Of a stretch of DNA of 63,394 nucleotides, positions 15,895 to 54,986 are shown one piece after another (the stretch's first letter is position 1; each line of letters begins with the position of its first letter). The position numbers were made by a program, and so were the translations under genes. The stretch covers positions 1-63,394 of the forward strand of contig JAHINB010000017.1 of the NCBI GenBank assembly GCA_018896215.1, written 5' to 3'. A model generated the notes under the pieces. That model was not told where the DNA came from and searched no databases. It was given only the letters and a program-made list of their open reading frames with translations. Source of the stretch: Patescibacteria group bacterium (lineage in GTDB: Bacteria; Patescibacteriota; WWE3; 0-14-0-20-40-13).

Positions 15895-16378
15895 AGCTTG
15901 TATAGCGATGAATTTTAACTAAATGAGTTATTGCCATGGCAAGACCATCAGCTGCGTCGTCTTGTTTAATTTTTTCTGTGAGATTAAGATATTTCGGAAC
16001 CGCGAGTTGCATCTCCTTTTTTTTGGCGCGCCCGTAACCGGTCAAGACCAATTTTGCCTGCAAGGCGGTGTACTCAAAAAGTGGAATATTGCGTGTCTCG
16101 GCGGCAAGCATGATGACTCCCCTAGCCTGCCCCACGCTTAACGCCGTCTTGACATTGGTGTTAAAAAAAATCCGCTCAATGACAATTTCCTTAGGTTTAT
16201 GCTTATCCAACAGCTTGCCAATTTCCTGATATAAAGTCAAAAGACGACCCGACATTACCGTATTTGCCGGCGTCGAGATACAACCATAGGAAACAACCTT
16301 GAGAGGTTTGTTTTTTACAAAGCCGATTATGCCGTAACCAGTGATGGCGGTTCCGGGGTCAATACCAATTATAATCAT
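15887..16378 (-). CDS. ruvC: Holliday junction resolvase RuvC
   Basis: MIIIGIDPGTAITGYGII N-terminus, RNase H-like fold residues, about 160 aa. Confidence 0.92.
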   Translation of the reverse strand: MIIIGIDPGTAITGYGIIGFVKNKPLKVVSYGCISTPANTVMSGRLLTLYQEIGKLLDKHKPKEIVIERIFFNTNVKTALSVGQARGVIMLAAETRNIPLFEYTALQAKLVLTGYGRAKKKEMQLAVPKYLNLTEKIKQDDAADGLAMAITHLVKIHRYTSYA

Positions 16379-16911: not shown

Positions 16912-16912
16912 A

Positions 16913-16970
16913 TTTTTTGGGGGAGACACCCCAAAACAATTCCTTGCCTTTAGGGGTGTCTCCCCGAAAT
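16913..16970. repeat. palindromic element family A (GGGGAGACACCCC ... GGGGTGTCTCCCC)
   Basis: 13-nt arms plus flanking TTT/AAA. One of eight copies. Confidence 0.85.
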
Positions 16971-16972
16971 CC

Positions 16973-17233
16973 CTATGTAGCTTTTTTCTCCAGTACCCCA
17001 ATTCTTACTTCGTGATTCTCTAATTGCTCTTCGTGACCATAAATTCTGGAGGAATGAAAAGTATGCTCCTCGTCAAATTTTTTAAACGCACCAACTAACC
17101 AATCTAGAGTATCGTATATTTTTCTTATATCCTCCCTAAACGGAGACAGTTTCTGCTCTAGTTTACTATCTAACTTAGTTTCTAAAGTTGCATCAAAATA
17201 TTCTTTTGTGAGAATTTCTGTTTTCTTAGGCAT
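16973..17233 (-). CDS. small coiled-coil hypothetical protein
   Basis: 86-aa ORF with host-like AT-rich codons and no recognisable domain. No clear SD. Confidence 0.35.
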   Translation of the reverse strand: MPKKTEILTKEYFDATLETKLDSKLEQKLSPFREDIRKIYDTLDWLVGAFKKFDEEHTFHSSRIYGHEEQLENHEVRIGVLEKKAT

Positions 17234-17291
17234 GGATTTATTGTAGGAGTTAAATTGGATAAATTCAACAAGTAAAAATGTAAGTCTGACA

Positions 17292-17321
17292 TTGACCTAT
17301 AGTGACGAAAAGTGTTATAAT
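17292..17321 (+). promoter_or_regulatory. sigma70-like promoter of GC-rich cassette 1
   Basis: TTGACC (17292-17297), 18-nt spacer, TGtTATAAT (17316-17321, extended -10). Confidence 0.55.
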
Positions 17322-17426
17322 ACAGTAACTCGTGCGCGACCGTCGCGCAACCCCGCCCACGCAGGCGGGTCAAACCCCCTACCTCACAATTCTTCCCTGC
17401 CTGTGGCAGGGAGAAAGGAAAACCTC

Positions 17427-18063
17427 ATGAAGAAGGTTAAGGTTTTTGTTGTGCTAGCGGTCGTCCTGGCCGCCCTTCCGTTGTTCGTCGTCGTCCCCCA
17501 CCCTGCCGAGGCGCAGGTGACCTGCCCTGCAGGAACCTATTATCAGGTAGACCCTGGATCGCCCCAGGGGTTCTACTGTGTGGTGGGGGAACCCCCCGCC
17601 ATCAACCTCTGCGCAAGAATGGGAATGGGTTCCGTCGTACGGCAACGGGTACGACCCCAAAAAGCTCCCCCTCCTGGGTCTTTTCGACAAGATGGTCGGA
17701 GATCCAATTGGGGCACTCTCCCGGATCCAACCGGGTCAACCAATCGAAGAGTGGCCTCAATACCAAAAAGATGCTATCGGCGGTGCAATCGCCGACACAG
17801 TGACCATCGGAATTTTCAGTTGGGTGGACTGGCTCTCGGGTCTTCTCGCAGAAGACTCAGACTCACCGCCCACCTCAGCTCCAGCTCCTCCGGATCCGGA
17901 ACCGACTGTCGCTCCTTCCGTCTCTTCCACGACCGCAGGAAGCCCCTGCGGGTATCAGTGGAAGAGGAGAGGGGACCTAGTCTGCTCCGCCTGGTGCTTA
18001 GCACTAGACGGACAACGAACATGGGCGTTGGACGAAGGGGGATTCGCGAAGTGCGCTAACTAG
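17427..18063 (+). pseudogene. GC-rich secreted ORFan, split by a +1 frameshift at a G5/C6 tract (or phase-variable, or a sequencing error)
   Basis: The signal peptide MKKVKVFVVLAVVLAALPLFVVVPHPAEA-Q is in frame 17427. After 17585-17597 that frame turns into Arg-rich nonsense. Frame 17578-18063 reads as a plausible protein (WEWVPSYGNGYDPKKLPLLGLFDKMVGDPIG...). Confidence 0.6.
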
Positions 18064-18087
18064 CTTTTCGTCCCATCCCCCTCTCAC

Positions 18088-18145
18088 CCGCGCGGATTTA
18101 GAGAACTCTTTCGAGAGAACCCTAGATCCGCGCGCTGTACTTTTG
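18088..18145 (+). terminator. long GC hairpin terminator of cassette 1
   Basis: CCGCGCGGAT...ATCCGCGCG followed by ctgtactttt. Confidence 0.5.
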
Positions 18146-18261
18146 ATTGGTTGCTTAATGAGTGTAGCGAATTTAGCAACCATCAATCCTCCGAAGCCTT
18201 GGCGTAGGAGGATAAATTACCCCCTTGACAATCTCGTTCAAGAATTTAAACTCGTAGACTA

Positions 18262-27110: not shown

Positions 27111-28138
27111 TCAACCACCCCCAACACCTTTCTCTCCGCCTCTTCTAAATCTATGCCAAGCAATAGTGCTGCAGAAGCCGCCTTGTGTCCCCCACCCCCG
27201 AGCGCCTTAGCGTAAATTGATGTATCCACGCCTTTTTGCGACCTAAAACTCACATGAATTCTTTTGGGTTCTTCCTCATTTAGAGTAAAGCAAAAGTCGT
27301 ATCCTCTAATATCCTTGATGGAGTCCACCGCCCCACCAACTTTATCTGGTTCAATATTGCTATCAAGGTACTCTTGATGGCTAATCTTACTATAACAAAA
27401 TCTTTTCTCATCATTAAACTTAAGATTATTATAAATGATTGAGAGATATTTTTTGTTCTCTTTGGGATAATTGTAAAGCATAATGCTAGACAGTTCTTGA
27501 TAATCCACGGTTGAGATAAGTTCTGCGACAATGCCAAGGAGCTTTGGAGAAATTTTCCATTTCAAATGCCCCGTGTCGGACAAAATACCCAGCAAAATCA
27601 TTTTTAGAATTTTCGGGTGACACCCCAAAACAGTGCCTTTAGGGGTGTCACCCGAAAATTTCCTCCCTTCCCTAAAGATTTGGTAAATTATCTCACTCGT
27701 GGAACTAGCTGTAGTATCCACATAATTTACCCCACCAAAATAAACAAGTTTGTTTCTGACGAAATAACTATTACCGGGGTGGTGATCAAGATTAATAATC
27801 TTGAGATTTGGTGGCAAGGTAAAATTGATTTTGTTATCTTTAGTGTATCTTGCCAAATCGGTAGAATCCAAAGCCAGCAGGGTATCGTATTTGGACATAT
27901 CCATTTTGTCTAACCCAGTCTCCCAATTGACAATTTTGTACTCGGGTAGCAAATCATAAAAACTCCCCATAGTATCGGCGCAAACGACTGTGGGGTTCTT
28001 GCCCATGCTTTGCAAAATGTAGTACGAGGCAAGAGCGCTTCCAAACGAATCCCCATCGGGACGGAAGTGGAGAGGGATAAGCACATGATTACTGTTTGCA
28101 AGAGCCGTTTTAACTTCAGAGAAGGTATTATTTTCCAT
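27068..28138 (-). CDS. DHH/DHHA1 phosphoesterase (NrnA-like)
   Basis: PDGDSFGS, DHH and GGGH motifs in canonical order. Confidence 0.8.
   Translation of the reverse strand: MENNTFSEVKTALANSNHVLIPLHFRPDGDSFGSALASYYILQSMGKNPTVVCADTMGSFYDLLPEYKIVNWETGLDKMDMSKYDTLLALDSTDLARYTKDNKINFTLPPNLKIINLDHHPGNSYFVRNKLVYFGGVNYVDTTASSTSEIIYQIFREGRKFSGDTPKGTVLGCHPKILKMILLGILSDTGHLKWKISPKLLGIVAELISTVDYQELSSIMLYNYPKENKKYLSIIYNNLKFNDEKRFCYSKISHQEYLDSNIEPDKVGGAVDSIKDIRGYDFCFTLNEEEPKRIHVSFRSQKGVDTSIYAKALGGGGHKAASAALLLGIDLEEAERKVLGVVDNFQFSKSKNCFDV
27611..27658. repeat. family A palindrome inside the DHH gene (in frame)
   Basis: TTCGGGTGACACCCC...GGGGTGTCACCCGAAAA is translated as FSGDTPKGTVLGCHPK. Confidence 0.85.
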
Positions 28139-29984: not shown

Positions 29985-30043
29985 TTTTCGGGGAGACACC
30001 CCTAAAGGCATTTGAATTCTGTTTGGGGGTGTCTCCCCAAAAA
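29985..30043. repeat. family A palindrome, intergenic
   Basis: TTTTCGGGGAGACACCCCTAAAGGCA...GGGGGTGTCTCCCCAAAA. Confidence 0.85.
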
Positions 30044-30079
30044 ATCTTCCACTCATTTTTCCCCCAATGTCACTATAGG

Positions 30080-30108
30080 TTGCATTTTGGCAAATTTTGT
30101 TCTATAAT
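30080..30108 (+). promoter_or_regulatory. sigma70-like promoter of GC-rich cassette 2
   Basis: TTGCAT, 17 nt, TATAAT. The -10 plus initial transcribed sequence (TATAATCTCCCTAGTTTG) is nearly repeated at 48491-48510, upstream of cassette 6. Confidence 0.55.
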
Positions 30109-30177
30109 CTCCCTAGTTTGATTCGAATGCCCGCGGGTGTCGTGTGGCAAAAAACCAACAACAAAAGGAGCTCAACA

Positions 30178-30654
30178 ATGGGACGCCAAATTCTAATCGG
30201 AATACTCACCGTCTTGATTTTCATCAATGTGATGCTGACCGGAGCGTTGGTGGATGCAAAGTTCCTTCACCTCTACCACGCATGCTTACCAGAAGACTGC
30301 GACTGCAGTGCACACCCGCCCATGTCCCCGACCGAGCTTGCATCGAGACCGACCCCGCAGCCGCCGCGGGTGATTGTATCTGCAGACCAAATGTACGCCA
30401 TCACAGAATACACGACGAGCAGGTTCGAGGGCGGCTACTTCTACCTGTCGGGAATCCGCGAGACGGTCCCAACGGAGTGGAGGTTTGGGCAGGACTGGTG
30501 TGACTGGTCCCAGATCAGCCCGCACCTCCACAAGGCAAAAGGTTTGACCGTGGAGGTTGAGGTGAAGAGTACCAGTCTGGTTTTCCGTGTCCCAGACACA
30601 GATAAACCAAACTGGGAACCCTACATCTGGACCTGCTACCCACCCGCCCGCTGA
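30178..30654 (+). CDS. GC-rich secreted/membrane-anchored ORFan
   Basis: AAGGAG-N7-ATG. N-terminal hydrophobic segment MGRQILIGILTVLIFINVMLTGALVDA. GC3-rich codons unlike neighbouring genes. Confidence 0.6.
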   Translation: MGRQILIGILTVLIFINVMLTGALVDAKFLHLYHACLPEDCDCSAHPPMSPTELASRPTPQPPRVIVSADQMYAITEYTTSRFEGGYFYLSGIRETVPTEWRFGQDWCDWSQISPHLHKAKGLTVEVEVKSTSLVFRVPDTDKPNWEPYIWTCYPPAR

Positions 30655-30670
30655 ACCCCCGCCTAACCCG

Positions 30671-30747
30671 AAACCGCCGAGCGGTGTGTTAAAGAAAGTG
30701 ATCTAAAAAATCACGATCCCAAACACATCTCCCGGCGGTTTAGTTTT
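30671..30747 (+). terminator. long hairpin terminator of cassette 2
   Basis: AAACCGCCG...CGGCGGTTT with nested GTGTGTT/AACACAT arms, then agtttt. Confidence 0.45.
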
Positions 30748-30802
30748 GCAAAAAACTCACTTTTTTGTAAATTGTACTTGACAAAAACTGCAAAAGACTT
30801 TT

Positions 30803-36452: not shown

Positions 36453-37760
36453 ATGGATCAAAGTACAACCCAAACCTTAAAAGGCTTTAGGGATTTTTTA
36501 CCCGAAAAAATGCGGGTGCGCAACTGCGTCCAAAAAATTCTGCAGGAGTCGTTTGAGGAATTTGGTTTTGAGCCTTTGCAAACGCCCTCTTTAGAATATG
36601 CCGAAACCTTGTTAAAAAAATACTCCGCTGAAAACGACAAGGAGACTTATATTTTTGAAGATTTGGGGAAAAGAAAGGTCGGTTTAATCTACGACTTGAC
36701 TGTCCCCGTCGCAAGAGTGTTATCACAAGTTGACAATAATATTGTGATGCCGTTTAAACGCTATCAAATTCAACGCTGTTACCGCGCCGAAAAACCCCAA
36801 AGGGGTAGATTTCGCGAATTTGTCCAGTGTGATATTGATATTTTTGGAGTGACTTCGGAACTTGCCGATGCCGAAGTCTTGGCTTGCGGTTATAAAGCCA
36901 CCCAAAAACTAGGATTTACTAATTTTTCTTTTTTGATTAATGATCGTAATACACTTTTTGAGATTTTGCAAAAAGCCGGTGTTTCCGAACCCAATAAACA
37001 ACTTTCGGTTCTGCGCTCGCTAGATAAGTTAGAAAAGATCGGGCAAAAGGCGGTCTCCCGAGAGTTGGCATCAAAAAGATTCCCCACAGCCCAAACAGCC
37101 CTAATTTTTTCCCTTATCTCCCAGAGCAAACCCTCGGAAAACTTGATTAACATTACAAACTATGCGGTAGCTTTAGGCGTACCTAAAGAAAAACTGATCT
37201 TCTCCCCTACTCTTTCGCGCGGAGCGGATTATTATACTGGCATGGTGGTCGAAGGAGTGGTTACTGAACCCAAAATTGGTTCAATTTTGGGAGGCGGCAG
37301 ATACGATAAATTAATTGAATCTTTTGGTGGCAAACCAACCCCGGCAACGGGAATTAGTTTTGGTTTTGAACGCGTTTGCGAGGTGGTGGAAGAACTCGAT
37401 CTTTTAAAAAATGTCATTAATGCTTATCCCGCCAAGGTCTTGATTTGCCCCATTCTTAACAATCCTCAAGATCTCTTACCCGCCACAATGCGCGAAGCGC
37501 TTTGGGTGGGCCAAACTCTTAGACAAAATAACATCCCAACAGATATATTTTTAAAACCCCAAGACTCGTTGGCTAAACAAATAAAATACGCCAATGCTAA
37601 AAATATTCCTTATATTATGGTAATTGGATCAGATGAGGTGGAAAAAAATGTGGTATCGTTAAAAAATTTAGCCACTCGCGAGCAACAGTCGTTACCTTTA
37701 AAACAAGCTATTAAATTCATAAATCTCCCCGCCTGCCACACCAAAAGTTGTCATTGCTGA
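36453..37760 (+). CDS. hisS: histidyl-tRNA synthetase
   Basis: LKGFRDFLP, QRCYRAEKPQRGRFREF (motif 2), GGGRYD and a C-terminal anticodon-binding domain. Confidence 0.93.
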   Translation: MDQSTTQTLKGFRDFLPEKMRVRNCVQKILQESFEEFGFEPLQTPSLEYAETLLKKYSAENDKETYIFEDLGKRKVGLIYDLTVPVARVLSQVDNNIVMPFKRYQIQRCYRAEKPQRGRFREFVQCDIDIFGVTSELADAEVLACGYKATQKLGFTNFSFLINDRNTLFEILQKAGVSEPNKQLSVLRSLDKLEKIGQKAVSRELASKRFPTAQTALIFSLISQSKPSENLINITNYAVALGVPKEKLIFSPTLSRGADYYTGMVVEGVVTEPKIGSILGGGRYDKLIESFGGKPTPATGISFGFERVCEVVEELDLLKNVINAYPAKVLICPILNNPQDLLPATMREALWVGQTLRQNNIPTDIFLKPQDSLAKQIKYANAKNIPYIMVIGSDEVEKNVVSLKNLATREQQSLPLKQAIKFINLPACHTKSCHC

Positions 37761-37817
37761 CTTCTCGTGATGCAACAAGCGGGGCGAAACGGTCAACTAC
37801 CCACGAGTCACGAAGAA

Positions 37818-38036
37818 TCAGCGTCTGTCAAGAAGAAAGATGTTGACCCTACATTTGTCATCAAACTTCCCCATCTTTCCCAGGACATCGGCTCTGATTT
37901 GGTGAATGAGACCCCTCTGATCCGTGTCAGAGGAGCTGTTTGAATAGCGGACGCCAGTGACCGCCCGCCACCATCCTACACGAATGCTTCCAACGCGCCG
38001 TTCAGCAAACCCCGCCCAAACCATTTTAGATGTCAT
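37818..38036 (-). CDS. GC-rich small ORFan (72 aa), second gene of cassette 3
   Basis: GGAGG-N6-ATG. The ATG lies 1 nt after the stop of the upstream gene (taa g atg). Confidence 0.4.
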   Translation of the reverse strand: MTSKMVWAGFAERRVGSIRVGWWRAVTGVRYSNSSSDTDQRGLIHQIRADVLGKMGKFDDKCRVNIFLLDRR

Positions 38037-38037
38037 C

Positions 38038-38322
38038 TTACCCCTCCTGTCCACGATGTGGAAACAGTTCCACCTTAGCCTCTGCGGAAAATCCAAGAGG
38101 CTCCGTCTCGGTTCCCGTGAGAACAACTCGCTGAACCCAACCGCCTCCGAAAACGAATCTTGCTAAGCCCCTCCTTGCGAGGTCGTACACAGCAGACATG
38201 ACCTCGCTTTTCCGGAGACCAGTCCTTACGCAGAGGCTTCCCAAATCTACCGCTGATCCTCCCTTAGGGAGTTTCCTCCAAACAATCTCCGATCGCATTT
38301 TGTGAACCCTCTTTTTTGCCAC
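38038..38322 (-). CDS. GC-rich small protein with winged-helix-like segment, first gene of cassette 3
   Basis: AAGGAGGG-N6-GTG. The segment DLGSLCVRTGLRKSEVMSAVYDLARRGLARFV resembles a wHTH recognition unit. Confidence 0.45.
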   Translation of the reverse strand: MAKKRVHKMRSEIVWRKLPKGGSAVDLGSLCVRTGLRKSEVMSAVYDLARRGLARFVFGGGWVQRVVLTGTETEPLGFSAEAKVELFPHRGQEG

Positions 38323-38428
38323 GGTACACCCTCCTTTTTCGCGATGGTTGGTTGGATTGACAACAACTTACTATAGGGATTTTGCTATAAAAGAAGAGAA
38401 AATGCAAGAGGAAGAACGGCAAATGCAC

Positions 38429-38466: not shown

Positions 38467-38529
38467 TAATGGGGTGAGACCCTAAAACAGCATTGACACC
38501 ACAAAGATACCATGATATTAATCATATCA

Positions 38530-38814
38530 ATGAATAATACAAACCAAAGAGACAAAATAATTACCACCAATGTTAGATTCCCAGAGTCACAATGGTTACA
38601 AGTAAAAGTAGAGGCCGCCGAAATGGGCTTTAGCATCAACCAATACATTAACCGTATTATCGAACAAAGCTCTATGCAAAAACGATTGGCTTTAACCATT
38701 AAAGATAACAAATCCCCCGCTGTTTCATTCTGGAACTTACCAAAAATTGCCAAAAAATGGTCTAAACGAAAAGTATTAGAGATGTCAGAAGAAGATAAGA
38801 TAATTTATGCCTAA
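38530..38814 (+). CDS. ribbon-helix-helix-type antitoxin (VapB-like)
   Basis: TNVRFPESQWLQVKVEAAEMGFSINQYINRIIEQ. Overlaps the start of the PIN gene by 8 nt. Confidence 0.65.
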   Translation: MNNTNQRDKIITTNVRFPESQWLQVKVEAAEMGFSINQYINRIIEQSSMQKRLALTIKDNKSPAVSFWNLPKIAKKWSKRKVLEMSEEDKIIYA

Positions 38815-39229
38815 CAAATCAAAGGAAACCCTCTTTATAGATACAAGCTTTTTTAAAGCAATGTTAGATTCGTCCGACGACTTTCACAACAAAGCAGTAA
38901 AAACATTGAGTACAATCGAAAAAAACGGCAACCCACTTGTTACAACAAATTACATTTTAGATGAGGCATTTACATTAATTAGACAAAGGATGGGAGTTGG
39001 GGCATTAAAAATATTTAGAGAGGCGCTATTACAAAACGAATGGAGATTAAAAGTAGCCCGAACAACAATTCAAGATGAAGAAAATGCTTGGGATTATATG
39101 CTTAAAGACTGGAGTAATTTATCTTTTACCGATTGTGTATCTTTTGCAGTAATGAAAAGGCTAAGTATACAACACGCCTGCACATTTGATTCTCACTTTT
39201 CCAGCGCGGGCTTTTCCACGGTTCCCTAA
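38807..39229 (+). CDS. vapC: PIN-domain toxin VapC
   Basis: LFIDTS (Asp1), ILDEA, SFTDC and FDSHF acidic residues at canonical PIN spacing. Confidence 0.85.
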   Translation: MPNKSKETLFIDTSFFKAMLDSSDDFHNKAVKTLSTIEKNGNPLVTTNYILDEAFTLIRQRMGVGALKIFREALLQNEWRLKVARTTIQDEENAWDYMLKDWSNLSFTDCVSFAVMKRLSIQHACTFDSHFSSAGFSTVP

Positions 39230-39309: not shown

Positions 39310-39379
39310 AGCGGATGGCGGGACTCGAACCCACAACCCAGCGATACCATCGCTGTGCTCTACATTGAGCTACATCCAC
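39310..39379 (-). tRNA. tRNA-Thr (anticodon GGU)
   Basis: Acceptor GTGGATG/CATCCGC (one G-U pair), anticodon arm CAGCG-ATGGTAT-CGCTG, T arm GTGGG-TTCGAGT-CCCGC. No CCA encoded. Confidence 0.85.
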
Positions 39380-39394
39380 AACGAAAAAAACGAT

Positions 39395-39830
39395 TTCTGG
39401 TTCCCCGGGTGGTCTCGTAAGTGCCCCTGTGGCACTCCTTACACACCATCTCCCTGTCTAGCACTAAACATGACAGGGCGTTTTCCGTTAAACTACGGGG
39501 GTGATGTGATTACCTAGCTAGCCGCGCTCGCAGACGCCTCCCCTAGAGGCCGAGAGCGGACACTTTCCGCAGTTTCCGTTTCTCCCTTCGGGACAACCCT
39601 GCCCCAGAGGGAGTGCGCAGTGAAGCTCGAGGTAGCGCACCTCGCTACCACGCCGTTGCTTTTTGGCCCTCGCCCGAGGGCGGCGCGGCGGCGTCGTCTG
39701 CCGACGCACCGGCGGTCTACGGGTCGGTTGATCTAACTCCTGCAGGGCACGCTCGTGACGGACGAGGTTCTTACACATTTGGGGCTCCTTCCCTACGAGG
39801 AAACAAATTACGGGAAAAGCTCCCGCAAGC
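39395..39830 (-). other. GC-rich, hairpin-dense segment (cassette 4): either a structured ncRNA with RNase-P-catalytic-domain-like motifs or a small Arg-rich ORF (39518-39778)
   Basis: Many perfect 5-7 bp GC hairpins. On the minus strand: GGAAAGUGUCC (39568-39558) pairs with GGGCACUU (39426-39419); GCACUCC (39616-39610) pairs with GGAGUGC (39438-39432); a hairpin followed by AGAUG lies at 39478-39447. Alternatively, AAGGAG-N6-ATG precedes the 86-aa ORF. Confidence 0.3.
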
Positions 39831-39885
39831 TCCGTAAAAAACCGGAAAAAATGAACCTACTAAGCAGATTCACTCTTTCCGATTC

Positions 39886-39945
39886 ATTAGGGACGATCCC
39901 TAATACAATTCCGATCAAATGCCTCTTAAGGGATCGTCCCTAAAA
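39886..39945. repeat. family C palindrome (TTAGGGACGATCCCTAA ... TTAAGGGATCGTCCCTAA)
   Basis: Arms separated by about 25 nt. Solo arm pair at 42303-42323. Confidence 0.75.
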
Positions 39946-40142
39946 AGGCAAAACACGCCAGGGGGCGCATTCATCGTTATAGCCATAGTCTCTTGTAAGT
40001 CTCTTCCATCTCGTAAATGGCTATTGAGGGGTATTCTACCCCACCTTTTAACACTATGTCAACCTTTTTTAAAGAAAAAACTTAAAGCGCCTTGTTGGTC
40101 GGAAATGCATCCCGTAACCAAAAAGGCGCTTCTTCTAAAAAA

Positions 40143-40829
40143 CTAGAACGGCTCGCCCGAGATTGGTCTCTTCGGGGTAGAGACCAGCGAGATGAATGTC
40201 TTCGACATTGGCACTTGGCAGGTAAAGGTTACCTTCCAGACATAAAAAACTGATTGAGCGCTCTCCCGATAAGAGTAAGCGAACACGCCTACTCTCCTAC
40301 CCTGAACCCAACCCACCACCACTGGGGGAATCTCTGCCTCCCCATACCCCCAGGCAGTACCCACATAGTCCCCATTGACCACCCGCACCCGACCGATTTC
40401 AGCCCACCCGGAGGATGGGACTTCCACGGTCAGAACGAAGTCGACAAAATCTCCTGCGAAATCGGGACTGGAAGGCTTGGGAAGAGCCAGCCCCACCAAC
40501 TTGCAGGAAATAGCGTCCTTGGGAACCCATCCGTAGGATCCCACATAGCCACTCTTCTTCCCTGGATCAGACCTGTCCAAAGTTCCGAACAGATCTGGGT
40601 AGTTGGGGTCCATGGCCTTCCAGGGCGCCTGCATCACCGCCGCGGGGTCGCGCAGCTCCACTACTCGGACCGCCACCGAATCCGCTCCCGCGGGAGCGAC
40701 AACCCCCAGCTCCTCTACCCCCAAAACTTCCGGGAGTGGGGAGATTGAAATTTCCTGCGCCCGAGCGGGTGCAGGAACGAGAAACGACGACACTACCAGT
40801 ACCAGCAAAACTACGATTTTCGCTTTCAC
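40143..40829 (-). CDS. GC-rich secreted ORFan (cassette 5)
   Basis: AAGGAG-N7-GTG at 40829. Signal peptide VKAKIVVLLVLVVSSFLVPAPARA-QE. GC3-rich codons. Confidence 0.6.
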   Translation of the reverse strand: MKAKIVVLLVLVVSSFLVPAPARAQEISISPLPEVLGVEELGVVAPAGADSVAVRVVELRDPAAVMQAPWKAMDPNYPDLFGTLDRSDPGKKSGYVGSYGWVPKDAISCKLVGLALPKPSSPDFAGDFVDFVLTVEVPSSGWAEIGRVRVVNGDYVGTAWGYGEAEIPPVVVGWVQGRRVGVFAYSYRESAQSVFYVWKVTFTCQVPMSKTFISLVSTPKRPISGEPF

Positions 40830-40902
40830 TGTTTTCTCTCCTTTGCGAGAATTGTGAAATGGGATTAAATTGCACACCCCGTTGGGTGGCAAACGAACCC
40901 TC

Positions 40903-40931
40903 ATTTTACAACAAAAACACCCCCCAGTCAA
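40903..40931 (-). promoter_or_regulatory. sigma70-like promoter of cassette 5
   Basis: Minus strand: TTGACT (40931-40926), 17 nt, TAAAAT (40908-40903). Preceded by AACTATAGGA. Confidence 0.5.
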
Positions 40932-40998
40932 TCCTATAGTTAGAAACTCCCTAAATTTTGCTCTTGTTTAAGACCTCCTTTCCTCTTAAACTAATCTC

Positions 40999-43080: not shown

Positions 43081-44016
43081 ATGGATTACCTTGAGATTGA
43101 AAAAAATAGAATAGACTTAAAAATACTCGAAGCGAAAAAACTTTTGCTTGATCCTGCTTTGGCAGAACTTGCCAAGGAGGAGATTGCAAGGTTAGAACAA
43201 GAGAAAACGGAATTAGAAAAAGGGGGTAGTCCGCCTTTGGCGGACTACCCCAACGATTCTGCACCTTCTTCCCTCTCCAATCCCTCTAATTCCCCTTATC
43301 CCTCTACTCCCTCTAGTTCGTGTATTTTGGAAATAAGGGCAGGAACCGGGGGCGACGAGGCCAGCATTTTTGCCAGCGAGCTTTTTAGAATGTATCAAAG
43401 GTACGCCATAAACCAAGGTTGGAAGATAAATTTGCTAGGAGAAACCAGCGCTAAGATAACAGGCGAGGGGTGTTTTGACAAATTACAGTTTGAGTCGGGG
43501 GTCCATCGTGTCCAACGGGTACCACAGACAGAATCCAGTGGCAGAATCCATACTTCCACGATAACTGTGGCAGTTTTGCCCGTAGTCACTCCAAAGGAAG
43601 TGGAAATTAAGGATGCTGACTTGATATTTGACTCGTTTCATTCCGGCGGTCACGGCGGGCAGAATGTTAACAAGGTCGAAACCGCCGTTCGGATTACTCA
43701 CAAACCCACGGGAATTGTGGTTTCCTGCCAAGAGGAACGCTTTCAACTCAAAAATCGCGAAAAGGCTCTGGAAATGCTTCGCTCTAAACTTTATCAAATG
43801 ATGCAGGAACAACACCAAACCTCTGTCAACAACCTACGAGCAACGCAAGTGGGAACTGGTGACAGAACCGAAAAAATAAGAACCTACAACTTTCCGCAAA
43901 ATAGAATCACCGATCATCGAGCCGGCTTAAGCTGGCACAATATTAAGGGGGTAATGGAGGGGGAGATTGAGAGGGTGTTGAGTGATCTTGAGGAGAAATT
44001 GTTAACCAAAGAATAA
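43081..44016 (+). CDS. prfA: peptide chain release factor 1 (short N-domain carrying repeat insertions)
   Basis: PQT tripeptide in RVQRVPQTESSGRIHTS (RF1 PxT), and GGQ in SGGHGGQNVNKVETAV. Confidence 0.9.
   Translation: MDYLEIEKNRIDLKILEAKKLLLDPALAELAKEEIARLEQEKTELEKGGSPPLADYPNDSAPSSLSNPSNSPYPSTPSSSCILEIRAGTGGDEASIFASELFRMYQRYAINQGWKINLLGETSAKITGEGCFDKLQFESGVHRVQRVPQTESSGRIHTSTITVAVLPVVTPKEVEIKDADLIFDSFHSGGHGGQNVNKVETAVRITHKPTGIVVSCQEERFQLKNREKALEMLRSKLYQMMQEQHQTSVNNLRATQVGTGDRTEKIRTYNFPQNRITDHRAGLSWHNIKGVMEGEIERVLSDLEEKLLTKE
43220..43318. repeat. family B variant (GGGGTAGTCCGCC-tttg-GCGGACTACCCC) followed by family F tract, both in frame in prfA
   Basis: Translated as KGGSPPLADYPNDSAPSSLSNPSNSPYPSTPSSS. 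Confidence 0.75.
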
Positions 44017-44105
44017 ACTCTAAATTCTAAGCGCTAAATCCTAAACAATATCAAAACTCAAAAATCAAAATACAAAATTTGTTCTGAACATTAGAATTTC
44101 GGATT
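44017..44105. repeat. AT-rich family D element copy
   Basis: ..ctaaatcctaaacaatatcaaaa...gaacattagaattt.. shares blocks with 5395-5545. Confidence 0.65.
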
Positions 44106-45343
44106 TAGAATTTACTCTCCGCAATCTCGATCGCCTTCTCCAATTGCGCGTCCTTTGTTATATCATTCTCATCATTTTTAATCTCGTAATCTGGAGTTAA
44201 ACCCACCTTGTGAACCCAAGTTTTATTAGGAGTCAGCCATTTGGCAATCGTCACATGAACACTTGCCCCGTCCTCAAAATCTTCGGAGTCTTGAATTGTC
44301 CCCTTGCCAAAACTTGTCTCGCCAACCAGTTTTGCCCCCTGGCGATCCCGCAAAGCTCCAGCTAATATTTCGGACGCCGAAGCGCTTCCACCGTTGATGA
44401 GAACTACCACAGGATATTTTGTCAGCAACCCCTTGCGCATGACATCAAGCGAAATTTGCGCTCCATTGGCATCCTCTTGATAAACCACCGGCCCCTTGTC
44501 TAAAAATTCGCTGGCTAGGTAAACTGAACCATTTAAGTACCCACCGGGATTATTGCGCACATCCAGAATTAGCGATTTTAAATTTGGCATTACCCGGACT
44601 ATCTCGGCAACCACTTTGTCCCAATCGCCATTGGTATTTTCGCCAAATGTCGAAACTTTTATGTAAGCAATCCCCTGCCCTTTATCCTGCCATTCCACTG
44701 ACTTAATTACAATTTGACGACGAACAATCGCGACATCAAAAGGCTGGTTGCTAGCTGACGGCTCTCCTCTTAGAATATTGAGCGTAACCGTGGTATTTTT
44801 AGGTCCCCTAATTTTAGCCACCGCTTCGGAAAGCGACAGCCCTAGGGCGTTTTCCCCGTCAATTTTTAGGATTTTATCCTTGGGACGAATTCCCACCAAT
44901 TGCGCTGGCGATCCTTCTAGTGGCGAGACCACAATAATCACATCGTTATCGTCTTTTCCCAGTTCCGCGCCAATTCCCTCGTACTGCCCATTTAAAGCCG
45001 AAGCAAAAGAAGCGTTTTCCACAGGCTCTAAAAATGAAGTGTAGGGATCTCCTAAAGAATTGGTCAGTCCTTTGATAGCACCGTAAACCATTTTTTGACC
45101 GTCTAGCGGTCTTAGCAAGTACTTAGTGTTTAAAATGTCCCAAACTTTCCAAAACTCGTCAAAAGCAACCGTTGTTTCCCCAACTGGAGCCACCATTTGC
45201 CTTCGGGTTACAGTAATGGGAATGGATTTTTTGCGGTCGTACTCTACCTCAAATCCCCTACGACCGAAGTAATATCCGCAACTCGTTGCGGATATTAGAA
45301 GAAGCAGAGCAAGCAGTATTTTTTGAAAGAGTTTATAAGACAT
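44105..45343 (-). CDS. ctp: S41 carboxy-terminal processing peptidase with PDZ domain
   Basis: PDZ region GSPAQLVGIRPKDKILKIDG, catalytic region NGGSASASEI with downstream Lys. Signal anchor from Met at 45343. Confidence 0.88.
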   Translation of the reverse strand: MSYKLFQKILLALLLLISATSCGYYFGRRGFEVEYDRKKSIPITVTRRQMVAPVGETTVAFDEFWKVWDILNTKYLLRPLDGQKMVYGAIKGLTNSLGDPYTSFLEPVENASFASALNGQYEGIGAELGKDDNDVIIVVSPLEGSPAQLVGIRPKDKILKIDGENALGLSLSEAVAKIRGPKNTTVTLNILRGEPSASNQPFDVAIVRRQIVIKSVEWQDKGQGIAYIKVSTFGENTNGDWDKVVAEIVRVMPNLKSLILDVRNNPGGYLNGSVYLASEFLDKGPVVYQEDANGAQISLDVMRKGLLTKYPVVVLINGGSASASEILAGALRDRQGAKLVGETSFGKGTIQDSEDFEDGASVHVTIAKWLTPNKTWVHKVGLTPDYEIKNDENDITKDAQLEKAIEIAESKF

Positions 45344-48434: not shown

Positions 48435-48558
48435 ACTGGGTGGGATATTAGCAAATGAAAGGTGGACTAGCAAGCTTTTGTTTGTTGTGGTATAATTCTC
48501 CTAGTTTTGGGACTGTCCCAAAGCATAATCCCCCTACCACACAAAAAGGAGTGTTCCC

Positions 48559-49434
48559 ATGTTTCACAAATCGTTGTTCGTTCTGCTCGTCGTAGTTTTT
48601 CTGATGTTCCCCTACCCCATCAGCACCGTAGCCTCACCCAACAGCCCGCTTGGGCTCTATGTCGAAACGCCAAAGCGCATCGAAATCCCCATCGGAATCT
48701 CAAAAACGGCGGGGATCGTAGATTGGGTCGCCGAGGTAACGAATCGCTCGGACGAGGTCCAAAACCTCGCCACTCTTGAGATCGGCATCCTGTACAACAA
48801 CACAGGTGCCGATGGCATTGCAATAATGAATGCCAATGTCACCTGCTACGATGACATGGGACTTACGAGATGCGAATTGCCCGCCCTTGCTCCGGGCGAA
48901 ACTTTCGCACTTCGGGCCTATGCCAAGCCCACTCGGGCCGGACACCTTGTCGTCCAGTTTGCTCTCTCCGGTCATCACACCCTTGTCACCTCACAAGAGG
49001 ACACGCAGATTGACTACGGGCCCGATAAGTACGAGCCCAACGACACCTGCAAACAGGCGACTGCGGTTGAACCGGATCGCGGGACGATGCACTACTTGTC
49101 CATCAGCCCCGCCGACTTGGGGGATTGGTTCACGAGGACCGTCCCGCCCGGGCGGAAACGGACATATGGGCTAGAGTTGAGCTACGACAGCCTCGAGGGA
49201 CCCATCGAGGGGTCCATCCAGAACTTCTGCGATGCAGAGGCGTCCGCGACAGTCAACTGGAATTCCAGCATTGACGCTGGATCCGAACCCATCATAGGTG
49301 GCGGGATCGTCATCCGCCGCTATACTCTAACCCTCGACCCCGGGCAGTACTGGGTACGGCTGACATCACAACACCAAACCCGCTACAACGCCCGCTTCTG
49401 GGAGAAGCAATACTTCCTCCCACTCGTCAGATAG
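48559..49434 (+). CDS. GC-rich secreted protein with pre-peptidase C-terminal (PPC)-like domain (cassette 6)
   Basis: AAGGAG-N7-ATG. Signal peptide MFHKSLFVLLVVVFLMFPYPISTVAS. The YEPNDTCKQAT motif opens a PPC-type beta-sandwich. GC3-rich codons. Confidence 0.65.
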   Translation: MFHKSLFVLLVVVFLMFPYPISTVASPNSPLGLYVETPKRIEIPIGISKTAGIVDWVAEVTNRSDEVQNLATLEIGILYNNTGADGIAIMNANVTCYDDMGLTRCELPALAPGETFALRAYAKPTRAGHLVVQFALSGHHTLVTSQEDTQIDYGPDKYEPNDTCKQATAVEPDRGTMHYLSISPADLGDWFTRTVPPGRKRTYGLELSYDSLEGPIEGSIQNFCDAEASATVNWNSSIDAGSEPIIGGGIVIRRYTLTLDPGQYWVRLTSQHQTRYNARFWEKQYFLPLVR

Positions 49435-49494
49435 CCCAAAGACCCTTCCAGAAAGTCCGCCACTTGGGACATTTTGGGAGGGTTCGTTTTTTTG

Positions 49495-54930: not shown

Positions 54931-54986
54931 TCTTTCGGGGAGACACCCCTAAAGGCAAGGAATTGTTTTGGGGTGTCTCCCCTAAA
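54931..54986. repeat. family A palindrome, intergenic
   Basis: TTTCGGGGAGACACCCCTAAAGGCA...GGGGTGTCTCCCCTAAA. Confidence 0.85.

What the first reader, a model, noticed from the sequence alone, without database searches (positions are those of the whole stretch)
17292..18145. GC-rich secreted-ORFan cassette 1: strong promoter, three-hairpin leader, and a frameshift at a G5/C6 tract
Cassette 1 is a sharply bounded GC/GC3-rich block in an AT-rich backbone. It has a TTGACC-18-TGtTATAAT promoter. A ~100-nt leader holds three consecutive GC hairpins: GCGCGAC-c-GTCGCGC, CCGCC-cacgca-GGCGG and CCCTGCC-tgt-GGCAGGG, all within 17338-17400. The SD and a signal peptide begin at 17427. The signal-peptide frame degenerates into Arg-rich nonsense after GGGGGAACCCCCC (17585-17597), while the +1 frame (17578-18063) reads as a plausible Trp/Pro/Asp-rich protein. 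Deleting one G of the G5 run would fuse them into one ~212-aa secreted protein. Possible explanations are a homopolymer sequencing error, a fresh pseudogene, phase variation, or programmed frameshifting.
Basis: partly seen in the sequence, partly recalled or inferred. Interest (0 to 1): 0.65.

Follow-up and report, generated by a model that had tools for sequence, protein, structure and literature searches.

The report
Frameshifted strain-variable secreted ORFan gene
This is a self-contained, GC-rich gene for a small secreted protein with no known relatives in a groundwater WWE3 (CPR) bacterium; in this genome it is broken by one extra A (not by the G5/C6 run), and across related strains the same slot carries reshuffled leaders and even an unrelated secreted protein.

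Summary
The break is misplaced. Intact 211-aa copies of the gene exist at the same locus in other assemblies. Aligned with them, the G5AAC6 tract is identical everywhere. The window instead carries one extra A at 17604/17605 (ATC-ACC became ATC-AACC).

The insertion is a real segregating allele. Independent contigs of three runs from two studies carry it. A fourth dataset adds a compensating 1-nt deletion 55-59 nt downstream (A5 to A4), which restores the native C-terminal 133 residues. Nine other runs and the NCBI copy of this same contig lack it. Homopolymer error, phase variation at G5/C6 and programmed frameshifting are therefore not supported.

The more interesting result is the locus. 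The protein is a true ORFan. A sister WWE3 species has no cassette at this site. Conspecific strains (98-99% identical backbone) carry three leader/signal-peptide versions and two unrelated mature proteins. These are recombined at short conserved islands: the promoter hexamers, the end of the signal peptide and the terminator. Function is unknown; it is probably a strain-specific surface or secreted factor.

The parts
16973..17233 (-). Divergently transcribed 86-aa ORF (AT-rich, coiled-coil-like) that shares the lineage-specific insertion with the cassette
   Evidence: It is identical in the alternative-allele strains. It is absent, together with the cassette, from the sister WWE3 species L036. 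Pfam gives only a sub-threshold XhlA hit.
17292..17321 (+). Sigma-70-type promoter: -35 TTGACC, 18-nt spacer, extended -10 TGtTATAAT
   Evidence: 11 of 12, TG present. Both hexamers are unchanged in haplotype L001, although 18 of the 69 aligned positions 17263-17332 (the promoter region, hexamers included) differ.
17333..17349 (+). Hairpin 1, 7 bp, about 5 nt after the inferred transcription start; 5'-terminal stem-loop of the mRNA
   Evidence: L001 has a different sequence here (GUGUGCC-GAA-GGCACAC, against UGCGCGA-CCG-UCGCGCA) that again forms a perfect 7-bp hairpin at the same place.
17352..17369 (+). Hairpin 2 (CCCGCC-CACGCA-GGCGGG); its 5' arm ACCCCGCCCA is invariant in all alleles
17394..17412 (+). 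Hairpin 3 (8 bp, -14.8 kcal/mol) just upstream of the Shine-Dalgarno site; allele-specific
   Evidence: It is replaced by a long-range helix in L001-type leaders and deleted (27 nt shorter) in L009-type leaders.
17415..17429 (+). Shine-Dalgarno site (AAGGA) and ATG start codon (17427)
   Evidence: AAGGAG/AAGGA plus CTCATGAA is conserved in all three leader versions.
17427..17513 (+). Sec-type signal peptide, 29 codons, predicted cleavage AEA|QV
   Evidence: by inspection against the n-h-c layout and the -3,-1 rule. The first ~20 codons are only 43-44% identical between alleles. The last 29 nt (17488-17516) are shared 100% with the alternative allele.
17514..17603 (+). First 30 codons of the mature protein (Q30-I59), still in frame 0; contains the invariant G5AAC6 tract at 17585-17597
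   Evidence: The tract length is identical in all loci and runs.
17604..17605 (+). The frameshift: AA where intact alleles have a single A (ATC-ACC became ATC-AACC)
   Evidence: read laying reports '17604 left out 1' in X2-X6, X9, X10 and X12, and the insertion present in X1, X8 and X11.
17605..18063 (+). Remaining 152 codons plus stop of the true reading frame (T60-N211), now in frame +1
   Evidence: This stretch is 100% identical to intact P0001.
17659..17663 (+). A5 run; site of the compensating 1-nt deletion (A4) in contig L006, which restores the frame after 19 altered residues
18089..18145 (+). Long imperfect terminator hairpin (18089-18134) and a short T run; conserved 3' boundary of the exchangeable part
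   Evidence: z = -3.7. It is 98% identical in all alleles, including the unrelated M2 allele. The other haplotype has a T7 tail. The window's CTTTTG tail is too weak for the terminator scan.

Best explanation
Anatomy. The region 17292-18145 is a complete monocistronic expression unit. It runs from a strong promoter, through a ~100-nt 5'UTR that starts with a GC hairpin, to a Shine-Dalgarno site, a Sec signal peptide and a hairpin terminator. The mature protein is 182 aa, acidic (pI 4.2) and rich in Cys, Trp and Pro.

Context. The unit sits, together with an 86-aa ORF, as a lineage-specific insertion between yebC and a TPR gene of a groundwater WWE3 (Patescibacteria/CPR) bacterium.

The break. 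In this genome the gene carries a one-base insertion (an extra A at 17604/5) after codon 59. The cell would then export a 210-aa product whose last 151 residues are out-of-frame, basic nonsense. This is a loss-of-function allele that is still segregating in the population. In another dataset a second-site 1-nt deletion 55-59 nt downstream has restored the frame. That restoration argues the C-terminal 133 residues are under selection.

The locus. It is a recombination-shuffled, strain-variable slot. Promoter/hairpin-1, leader/signal-peptide, mature-protein and downstream segments each occur in two or three versions that are reassorted between strains. One version of the mature part is an unrelated 167-aa protein.

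Shown: the anatomy, the position of the indel, its presence or absence in independent datasets, the compensated allele, the mosaic alleles, the lack of homologues and the absence from a sister species.

Inferred: export and signal-peptide cleavage. That the 5' hairpin stabilises the mRNA. That the protein acts at the cell surface or outside the cell in strain-specific interactions (host cell, phage or competitors). That diversifying or frequency-dependent selection maintains the alleles.
For: Position of the break:
- An intact 211-aa homologue, P0001, lies at the same locus in three contigs.
- DNA alignments place the single difference at 17604, not in G5/C6.
- The NCBI copy of this contig (L004) is intact there. 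Over 20.4 kb it differs from the window by only 3 SNPs and this indel.

Allele survey:
- The insertion is present in Logan contigs of X1 and X8 (one study) and X11 (another study, depth 45).
- It is absent in X2-X7, X9, X10 and X12.
- L006 carries the insertion plus A5 to A4 and reads through to the native stop, giving 211 aa.

Variable locus:
- Alternative allele P0008 lies in the same slot, on a backbone 98-99% identical to the window.
- Its mature part is unrelated by BLASTP.
- Both alleles occur in the same samples.
- Segment identities show the mosaic.

ORFan status: no relatives among 5.8 billion or 1.84 billion proteins, nor in Pfam, PHROGs, NCBIfam, phages, plasmids, IMG/VR or GTDB representatives.

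Other: the sister species L036 has the TPR gene directly next to yebC. Promoter and hairpins are supported.
Against: - Only assembled contigs could be laid, not raw reads. The allele frequency inside any one sample is unknown, and contigs hide minor variants.
- Depth for the insertion allele is low in X1 (7.6) and X8 (4.1).
- The NCBI version of the same contig lacks the insertion. The window also disagrees with X1, X8 and X13 at 25207, so the window is a consensus of a mixed population.
- No transcript or protein evidence exists. The metatranscriptomes barely cover this organism and show nothing on the cassette.
- The function is entirely inferred. The AlphaFold model is unusable, with pLDDT 50.7.
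- The compensated allele rests on a single contig (L006).
Confidence: 0.78

Rival explanations
1. The extra A is a sequencing or assembly error in this version of the contig, and the gene is really intact in this organism.
For: The NCBI record of essentially the same contig (L004) has a single A. Most runs lack the insertion. Depth is low in X1 and X8. The window differs from X1, X8 and X13 at another site.
Against: - The same insertion appears in independently assembled Logan contigs of three runs from two studies, one at depth 45.
- It also appears in L006, where it is paired with a frame-restoring deletion.
- The site is CAC to CAAC, not a homopolymer, so it is not a typical platform error.
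Confidence: 0.1
2. The gene is a contingency locus switched on and off by slippage in the G5/C6 tract, or more generally by short homopolymers.
For: An indel pair exists in the population (+A at 17604, -A in the A5 run at 17659-17663). The gene product is likely surface-exposed or secreted, which is the usual class for phase-variable genes.
Against: - G5 and C6 have the same length in all 10 aligned loci and in all runs laid.
- The primary insertion is not in a repeat.
- Runs of 5-6 bases are shorter than tracts that slip at useful rates (established knowledge of contingency loci).
Confidence: 0.04
3. The frameshifted allele is still expressed as a near-normal protein by +1 ribosomal slippage, for example on CCC-CCC-G at 17592-17598, which would give ...GEPPPSTSAQEW...
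For: CCC-N sites are known +1 slippery sites (established knowledge of tRNA-Pro, m1G37 and EF-P). The slip window between the upstream +1-frame stop (17547-17549) and 17604 contains such a site.
Against: - The frameshift is not conserved. The majority of alleles are in frame, so no programmed signal has been selected.
- There is no 0-frame stop or rare codon to pause the ribosome, because frame 0 stays open for about 150 codons.
- The population repaired the frame by mutation in L006, which argues that slippage does not suffice.
Confidence: 0.04
4. The long frame-0 ORF (17292/17427-18059) is the real gene and the +1 frame is a GC-rich artefact.
For: - Frame 0 is open to within 4 nt of the native stop.
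- It has only 1 stop where synonymous-codon shuffles give 4.8 (P = 0.02).
- A gene caller called it (P0002).
Against: - Nothing matches that frame beyond the shared N-terminus.
- Its tail has pI 11.7 and is Arg/Ser-rich.
- All intact alleles read the +1 frame.
- The same depletion of stops in that relative frame is seen in a backbone gene, so it is a general codon-boundary effect.
Confidence: 0.01

Closest known systems
Strain-variable genes of flexible-genome (hypervariable) islands that encode surface or secreted proteins
   Same: - The cassette is present or absent between close relatives.
- Unrelated alleles occupy one syntenic slot in strains with a 98-99% identical backbone.
- Base composition is atypical and no homologues exist.
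- The alleles coexist in single samples.
   Different: - The unit is a single small gene rather than a multi-gene island.
- Exchange boundaries fall inside the gene's own control and sorting signals: the end of the signal peptide at 17516 and the start of the terminator hairpin at about 18087-18089.
- No integrase, tRNA or mobile-element scar lies at the borders.
Conserved-leader, variable-payload secreted products (polymorphic toxins with swapped C-termini; bacteriocin or lanthipeptide precursors; animal conotoxin and antimicrobial-peptide genes)
   Same: A shared export signal and cleavage site is followed by unrelated mature sequences. Both mature versions are Cys-containing, Trp/Pro-rich and secreted. 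This resemblance is recalled from general knowledge and from the titles listed.
   Different: - No toxin, immunity, processing or transporter gene is adjacent.
- Only the last ~10 codons of the signal peptide are conserved, and the rest is itself hypervariable.
- The alleles are alternatives at one locus, not a paralogous family.
- No family model matches.
5'-terminal stem-loops that stabilise bacterial mRNAs (E. coli ompA 5'UTR, B. subtilis aprE leader)
   Same: A GC hairpin lies within about 5 nt of the inferred 5' end. Its structure, but not its sequence, is kept between alleles. Established knowledge: such hairpins block 5'-end-dependent decay.
   Different: The transcription start site is inferred from the -10 box only, and no decay data exist. 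Hairpins 2 and 3 are not conserved, and no Rfam family matches.
Compensated frameshift pairs (a +1 and a -1 indel a few codons apart) in evolving protein genes
   Same: L006 carries the +A and a -A 55-59 nt downstream. This replaces 19 residues and regains the native frame.
   Different: It is seen in one contig only. The functional tolerance of the replaced segment (TSAQEWEWVPSYGNGYDPK becomes NLCARMGMGSVVRQRVRPQ) is untested.

Membership tests
Programmed ribosomal frameshift site | The frame change is conserved among homologues, so the shifted arrangement is the normal gene structure | tested here: not met
   P0001, L001-L004 and nine runs encode the protein in a single frame.
Programmed ribosomal frameshift site | A slippery motif with a pausing element (0-frame stop or rare codon, or a stimulatory SD or structure) at the shift site | tested here: inconclusive
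   CCC-CCC-G lies upstream of the indel. There is no 0-frame stop for about 150 codons and no conserved stimulator.
Phase-variable contingency locus (simple-sequence slippage) | A homopolymer or short-repeat tract in the ORF whose length differs between cells or strains | tested here: not met
   G5 and C6 are invariant in all loci and runs. The insertion is CAC to CAAC. Only contigs were available, not reads.
Sec (SPase I) signal peptide | A basic n-region, a 10-20-residue hydrophobic core, and small residues at -3 and -1 (AxA) before the cleavage site | tested here: met
   The sequence MKKVK / VFVVLAVVLAALPLFVVV / PHPAEA|QV was judged by inspection and hydropathy. No signal-peptide predictor was available.
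Rfam cis-regulatory leader (riboswitch, ribosomal-protein leader, etc.) | A match to a curated covariance model at its gathering score | tested here: not met
   Nothing reaches gathering score in the window. The best leader hit is L31-Firmicutes at 16.3 bits against a cut-off of 33.3, E = 1.5.
Integron gene cassette | A promoterless ORF followed by an attC site, in an array next to intI and attI | tested here: not met
   - The unit has its own promoter and a terminator hairpin without RYYYAAC/GTTRRRY cores.
- The GC-rich cassettes are scattered singly over 63 kb.
- The nearest tyrosine recombinase, about 3 kb away, is syntenic in the sister species that lacks the cassette.
Diversity-generating retroelement target | A template repeat near a reverse transcriptase, with variation confined to adenine positions | tested here: not met
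   There is no second copy of any part of 17292-18145 in the window. No RT lies among the genes within 10 kb. Differences between alleles involve all four bases and indels.
Polymorphic toxin or bacteriocin locus | A recognisable toxin or bacteriocin domain with an adjacent immunity, processing or export gene | tested here: not met
   Pfam, NCBIfam, PHROGs and sequence searches give no domain hit. The neighbours are yebC, an 86-aa ORF and a TPR gene that is conserved regardless of allele.
Intrinsic terminator | A GC-rich hairpin followed directly by a U run | tested here: inconclusive
   The hairpin at 18089-18134 is stable. The window's tail (CUGUACUUUUG) fails the scan. The other haplotype has U7.

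The most novel reading that the evidence does not exclude
The GC-rich units of this WWE3 genome may form a class of plug-in expression modules. Candidates are 17292-18145, about 30080-30750, 40143-40960 (minus strand) and 48470-49490. In each, unrelated secreted proteins would be exchanged between strains by recombination at the module's own short conserved signals: promoter, end of signal peptide and terminator. Such modules would give an ultra-small episymbiont a rapidly replaceable repertoire of surface or host-interaction factors. Their high GC and GC3 would then reflect either a common foreign source or GC-biased gene conversion at recombination hotspots.

Support so far:
- Cassette 1 shows such a swap at sequence level.
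- Cassette 2 shows an analogous joint, 30307 to 30671, from just after its N-terminal signal region to the start of its terminator.
- Cassettes 4 and 5 are structurally polymorphic.
- All four share the layout of promoter, early hairpin, AAAGGAG and signal peptide, and all have GC3 of 0.63-0.70.
Probability: 0.25. Interest if true: 0.6.

Novelty: new member of a known kind. Interest (0 to 1): 0.35.

Why it matters
For the genome record, the point is practical. The gene should be annotated as a 211-aa secreted-protein gene that is frameshifted at 17604/5. It should not be called as a 255-aa ORF, and it is not a homopolymer artefact.

For biology, CPR/Patescibacteria depend on other cells, yet almost nothing is known about the proteins they expose or secrete. 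This locus offers a compact natural experiment. It is strongly promoted, its product is predicted to be exported, and it is absent from a sister species. It is swapped between unrelated payloads in near-identical strains, broken in some strains, and re-repaired in one. That pattern marks a gene that matters conditionally, as expected for strain-specific interaction factors.

It also gives defined allele pairs (M1, M2, frameshifted, compensated) for testing. The coincidence of a recombination hotspot with locally raised GC3 bears on whether biased gene conversion shapes base composition in very small genomes.

Tried and rejected
- Rfam on the whole window at gathering score and on 17200-18250 at E up to 10: nothing for the leader.
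- Pfam, PHROGs and NCBIfam on the repaired protein, the alternative allele and three sibling cassette proteins: no family.
- Word-indexed search of 5.8 billion proteins and an exhaustive phmmer search of 1.84 billion representatives: only the gene itself, the window's own frame-0 ORF, and low-complexity Pro/Ser/Thr-linker hits in large proteins.
- tblastn against phages, blastn against plasmids, and IMG/VR and GTDB-representative scans: no relative, so no donor or mobile-element origin could be named.
- Terminator pattern in GTDB representatives: 0 hits.
- AlphaFold2 without an alignment: pLDDT 50.7 and pTM 0.24, so no fold search was run.
- Metatranscriptomes of one study: the organism is barely covered and nothing lies on the cassette, so there is no evidence on expression or transcription start.
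- EF-P look-up to recover an alternative allele of cassette 2: it returned only same-strain contigs.
- The idea that the long open frame 0 signals dual coding was rejected. The same depletion of stops in that relative frame occurs in a backbone gene.
- The idea that high GC3 reflects translational selection was rejected. S6 and EF-P have GC3 of 0.36-0.40.
- Literature searches for the accession and for comparable bacterial loci gave nothing directly relevant.
Full report
**What is there**

The window is a 63.4-kb stretch with 42.7% GC. It is a near-copy of contig JAKLRK010000004.1 of the groundwater MAG GCA_022012835.1.

The neighbouring genes are RuvC, YebC, GyrA, TruB, a Xer-type recombinase and a TrwB/DUF87 ATPase. 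The closest relatives of two of them are in candidate division WWE3 genomes: RuvC at 52% and the 865-aa ATPase at 77%. The organism is therefore a WWE3 (Patescibacteria/CPR) bacterium.

Between 17300 and 18100 the GC content rises to 0.56-0.61, with sharp edges. Third-codon-position GC is 0.60-0.71, against 0.30-0.47 in the neighbours.

The promoter scan finds TTGACC-18-TATAAT preceded by TG, matching 11 of 12 positions. The ATG at 17427 follows AAGGA. The ORF opens with a textbook Sec signal: MKKVK, 18 hydrophobic residues, then PHPAEA|QV.

**Where the frame break really is**

This returned one real relative: P0001, 211 aa, 90% identical over the full length. The only other hit was the window's own frame-0 ORF call, P0002.

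P0001 is encoded on three short metagenome contigs at the same locus, with the 86-aa ORF upstream and the TPR gene downstream.

In the DNA alignment the G5AAC6 tract is identical in all sequences. The only difference in the mature coding part is that the window has ATCAACC where the others have ATCACC. The extra base is therefore an A at 17604/17605, 7 nt past the tract. The natural junction is GEPPAI-TSAQEWEW.

**Is the insertion real?**

The NCBI version of this very contig (L004) lacks the extra A and encodes an intact 211-aa protein with the window's signal peptide. Over 20.4 kb it differs from the window by three substitutions and this insertion.

On its own that would suggest an error. 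However, a Logan contig of run SRR11548473 (L007, coded X1) is 100% identical to the window across the gene.

I laid the contigs of 16 DNA runs on 17250-18250. The insertion is present in X1 and X8 (same study) and in X11 (a different study, contig depth 45). It is absent in X2, X3, X4, X5, X6, X9, X10 and X12. It is also absent in X7, judged from the loose end CCGCCATC that adjoins 17605.

The G5 and C6 runs never differ in length. One run has a G>A substitution at 17589.

A further contig, L006 (Logan SRR35107410), carries the extra A and also lacks one A of the A5 run at 17659-17663. Its ORF therefore reads MKK...GEPPAI-NLCARMGMGSVVRQRVRPQ-KLPLLGLFDK... through to the native ...FAKCAN stop. 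It is 211 aa, with 19 residues replaced.

A frame-restoring second-site deletion is what one expects if a real frameshift allele was later selected back into frame. I therefore regard the insertion as a genuine, segregating loss-of-function allele (confidence about 0.8).

The caveat is that only contigs, not reads, could be inspected. In addition, the window disagrees with X1, X8 and X13 at 25207, so it is a consensus drawn from a mixed population.

**The product in this genome**

From ATG 17427, frame 0 stays open to 18059 and gives 210 aa. After residue 59 this is Arg/Ser-rich with pI 11.7, against 4.2 for the intact mature protein.

The long open wrong frame is somewhat unusual: 1 stop against 4.8 expected from synonymous-codon shuffles, P = 0.02. 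The same depletion of stops in that relative frame occurs in the 865-aa backbone gene, so I attribute it to codon-boundary bias plus high GC.

**The locus is a variable slot**

Aligned alleles show a striking mosaic.

| Segment compared | Partner | Identity to window |
|---|---|---|
| Mature part and 3'UTR | L001 | 100% |
| First 61 nt of the signal-peptide coding region | L001 | 44% |
| Leader | L001 | 64% |
| Promoter region | L001 | 74% (both hexamers untouched) |
| Sequence up to hairpin 1 | L003 | 100% (L001-type from there on) |
| Promoter, hairpins 1-2 | L009, L033, L034 | window-type |
| Last 29 nt of the signal peptide (17488-17516) | L009, L033, L034 | 100% |
| Terminator hairpin | L009, L033, L034 | 98% |

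Contigs in X2, X4 and X7 left the window at 17516 and, in X2, re-entered at 18087. A terminator-pattern scan of JGI metagenomes then recovered this form (L009). The corresponding protein P0008 also lies on two ENA contigs, L033 and L034.

These contigs have a leader 27 nt shorter that lacks hairpin 3, and a different N-terminal half of the signal peptide. Their mature sequence (167 aa after cleavage, 196 aa in all) shows no BLASTP similarity to P0001 beyond the signal peptide.

The flanking 10 kb and 7 kb of these contigs are 99.0% and 98.3% identical to the window. Both alleles occur in the same two ENA samples.

The sister species CG08_land_8_20_14_0_20_40_13 has the TPR gene 133 nt from yebC. 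It has neither the 86-aa ORF nor any cassette.

The unit is thus a lineage-specific insertion. Its segments (promoter/hairpin 1, leader/signal, mature part, downstream spacer) exist in two or three versions each and have been reassorted by recombination at short conserved islands.

**The leader**

Hairpin 1 begins about 5 nt after the position where transcription should start (inferred from the -10 box). It is the only element kept in all alleles. In L001 its sequence is replaced (UGCGCGA-CCG-UCGCGCA becomes GUGUGCC-GAA-GGCACAC), yet a perfect 7-bp hairpin re-forms at the same place.

Hairpins 2 and 3 fold locally in the window allele. In L001 they pair with each other as a long-range helix, and in L009 hairpin 3 is missing. 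Rfam has no match.

The best reading is a 5'-terminal stabilising stem-loop plus allele-specific GC-rich structure, not a conserved riboswitch-like element. With only two hairpin-1 haplotypes, formal covariation statistics are not possible.

**The protein**

No relative was found, apart from low-complexity linker hits, in any of the following:
- 5.8 billion clustered proteins.
- An exhaustive phmmer search of 1.84 billion representatives.
- Pfam, PHROGs and NCBIfam.
- Phage records, plasmids, IMG/VR contigs and GTDB representative genomes.

Both M1 and M2 share a layout rather than a sequence. Each has an N-terminal Cys-containing segment, a Pro/Ser/Thr linker and a Trp-rich acidic region. A moderately hydrophobic stretch of about 20-25 residues follows, with Kyte-Doolittle maxima of 1.2 and 1.75. 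Then come an SPPxxSAPAP linker and a C-terminal Cys/Trp segment.

The single-sequence AlphaFold model was too poor to use, at pLDDT 50.7. Function is therefore inferred only from export signals and population behaviour: an accessory, probably surface-associated or secreted, strain-specific factor.

**Base composition**

High GC3 is not a mark of high expression in this genome, because S6 and EF-P have GC3 of 0.36-0.40. It is also not explained by amino-acid content alone, since GC3 is a synonymous measure.

Two explanations remain. One is foreign origin from an unsampled donor. The other is GC-biased gene conversion at a recombination hotspot. Neither was tested.

**Sibling cassettes**

The window has other GC-rich blocks. 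Three of them are the same kind of unit: -10 box, early hairpin, AAAGGAG, signal peptide or signal anchor, GC3-rich ORFan and hairpin terminator. They lie at about 30080-30750, 40143-40960 (minus strand) and 48470-49490.

They share no sequence with cassette 1. They are also structurally polymorphic in other samples:
- Cassette 2 has a joint from 30307 to 30671, that is, from just after its N-terminal signal region to the start of its terminator.
- Cassette 4 has several joints within 40157-40903.
- Cassette 5 has a 376-nt deletion variant.

This supports, but does not prove, a common class of exchangeable secreted-protein modules.

**Comparison with known systems**

The frame break is an ordinary indel allele. 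The tests for a programmed frameshift (conservation of the shift) and for a contingency locus (variable tract) were run and not met.

The unit is not an integron cassette. It has its own promoter, no attC cores and no array.

It is not a DGR target. There is no template repeat and no RT, and the changes are not confined to adenines.

It is not a recognisable toxin or bacteriocin locus.

It behaves like the strain-variable surface genes of flexible genomic islands. In its shared-export-signal, unrelated-payload pattern it also resembles polymorphic toxins or conserved-leader peptide families, but it is not a member of any defined family.

**Verdict**

The specific claim, a frameshift at a G5/C6 tract, is wrong. 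The gene is a new ORFan member of a familiar kind of locus, and in this genome it carries a fresh frameshift.

Noticed in passing
window 16913-16969, 27610-27658, 29985-30044, 53403-53459, 54933-54986, 55915-55971, 56430-56484: A dispersed, roughly 55-nt palindromic intergenic repeat family (GGGGAGACACCCC...GGGGTGTCTCCCC type). One copy abuts the 86-aa ORF next to cassette 1 and another lies just upstream of cassette 2. Word depth at 16940 is about 15-fold above the surroundings in other runs, so it is multi-copy genome-wide.
   Followed up: partly
window 30080-30750 (+), 40143-40960 (-), 48470-49490 (+): Three more GC3-rich (0.64-0.70) monocistronic units encode signal-peptide ORFans without Pfam or PHROGs hits. 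Each has a TATAAT box, an early hairpin and an AAAGGAG site. All are structurally polymorphic in other groundwater runs: joints 30307 to 30671, several within 40157-40903, and a 376-nt deletion from 49079 to 49456.
   Followed up: partly
window 48559-49434: The cassette-5 protein contains ...YEPNDTCKQATAV...GDWFTRTV..., which from memory resembles the start of bacterial pre-peptidase C-terminal (PPC) domains. Pfam gave no hit at E up to 1.
   Followed up: no
window 39380-39950 and 37751-38350: Two further GC-rich blocks (up to 0.64 GC) have no convincing ORF or Rfam match. The first lies next to tRNA-Thr (39310-39379, minus strand) and has a 273-nt replacement variant (39562 to 39836) in one run. 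The second holds a 94-aa ORF with a very weak MarR-like hit.
   Followed up: partly
window 38512-39229: A likely toxin-antitoxin pair: a 100-aa protein with a weak HicB-family (antitoxin-type) hit, overlapping a 140-aa PIN-domain protein (PF01850, E = 1.3e-12).
   Followed up: partly
window 8271, 14464, 17604, 25207 against L004 (GCA_022012835.1): The window is not identical to the public record. It lacks the record's first 10 nt and differs at three substitutions plus the frameshifting A within 20.4 kb. At 25207 runs X1, X8 and X13 agree with the public record, not with the window. No gene is on record for the public contig at the cassette, although its DNA holds the intact ORF, and that intact protein is not in the protein collection.
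   Followed up: partly
L036 7202-8315 (WWE3 CG08_land_8_20_14_0_20_40_13): In the sister species the TPR gene and yebC are 133 nt apart. The 86-aa ORF, the palindromic repeat and the cassette are all missing, so the whole of 16912-18261 is a lineage-specific insertion.
   Followed up: yes
window 43200-45000: Another strongly strain-variable stretch that is not GC-rich. It has several replacement joints (43361 to 43639, 43919 to 44289, 44219 to 44961) and a multi-copy segment around 43870-44100, with depth 2-4 times the neighbours.
   Followed up: no
window 18133-18183: The spacer between the cassette terminator and the TPR promoter exists in two forms. The window has 49 nt where most other samples have 84 nt. 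The window's form also weakens the terminator's T run (CTTTTG against T7).
   Followed up: partly
window 16019-16190 (ruvC): A patch of about 20 clustered substitutions in ruvC relative to runs X2, X3 and X5, in an otherwise near-identical backbone. It looks like a short recombination tract from a diverged relative.
   Followed up: no
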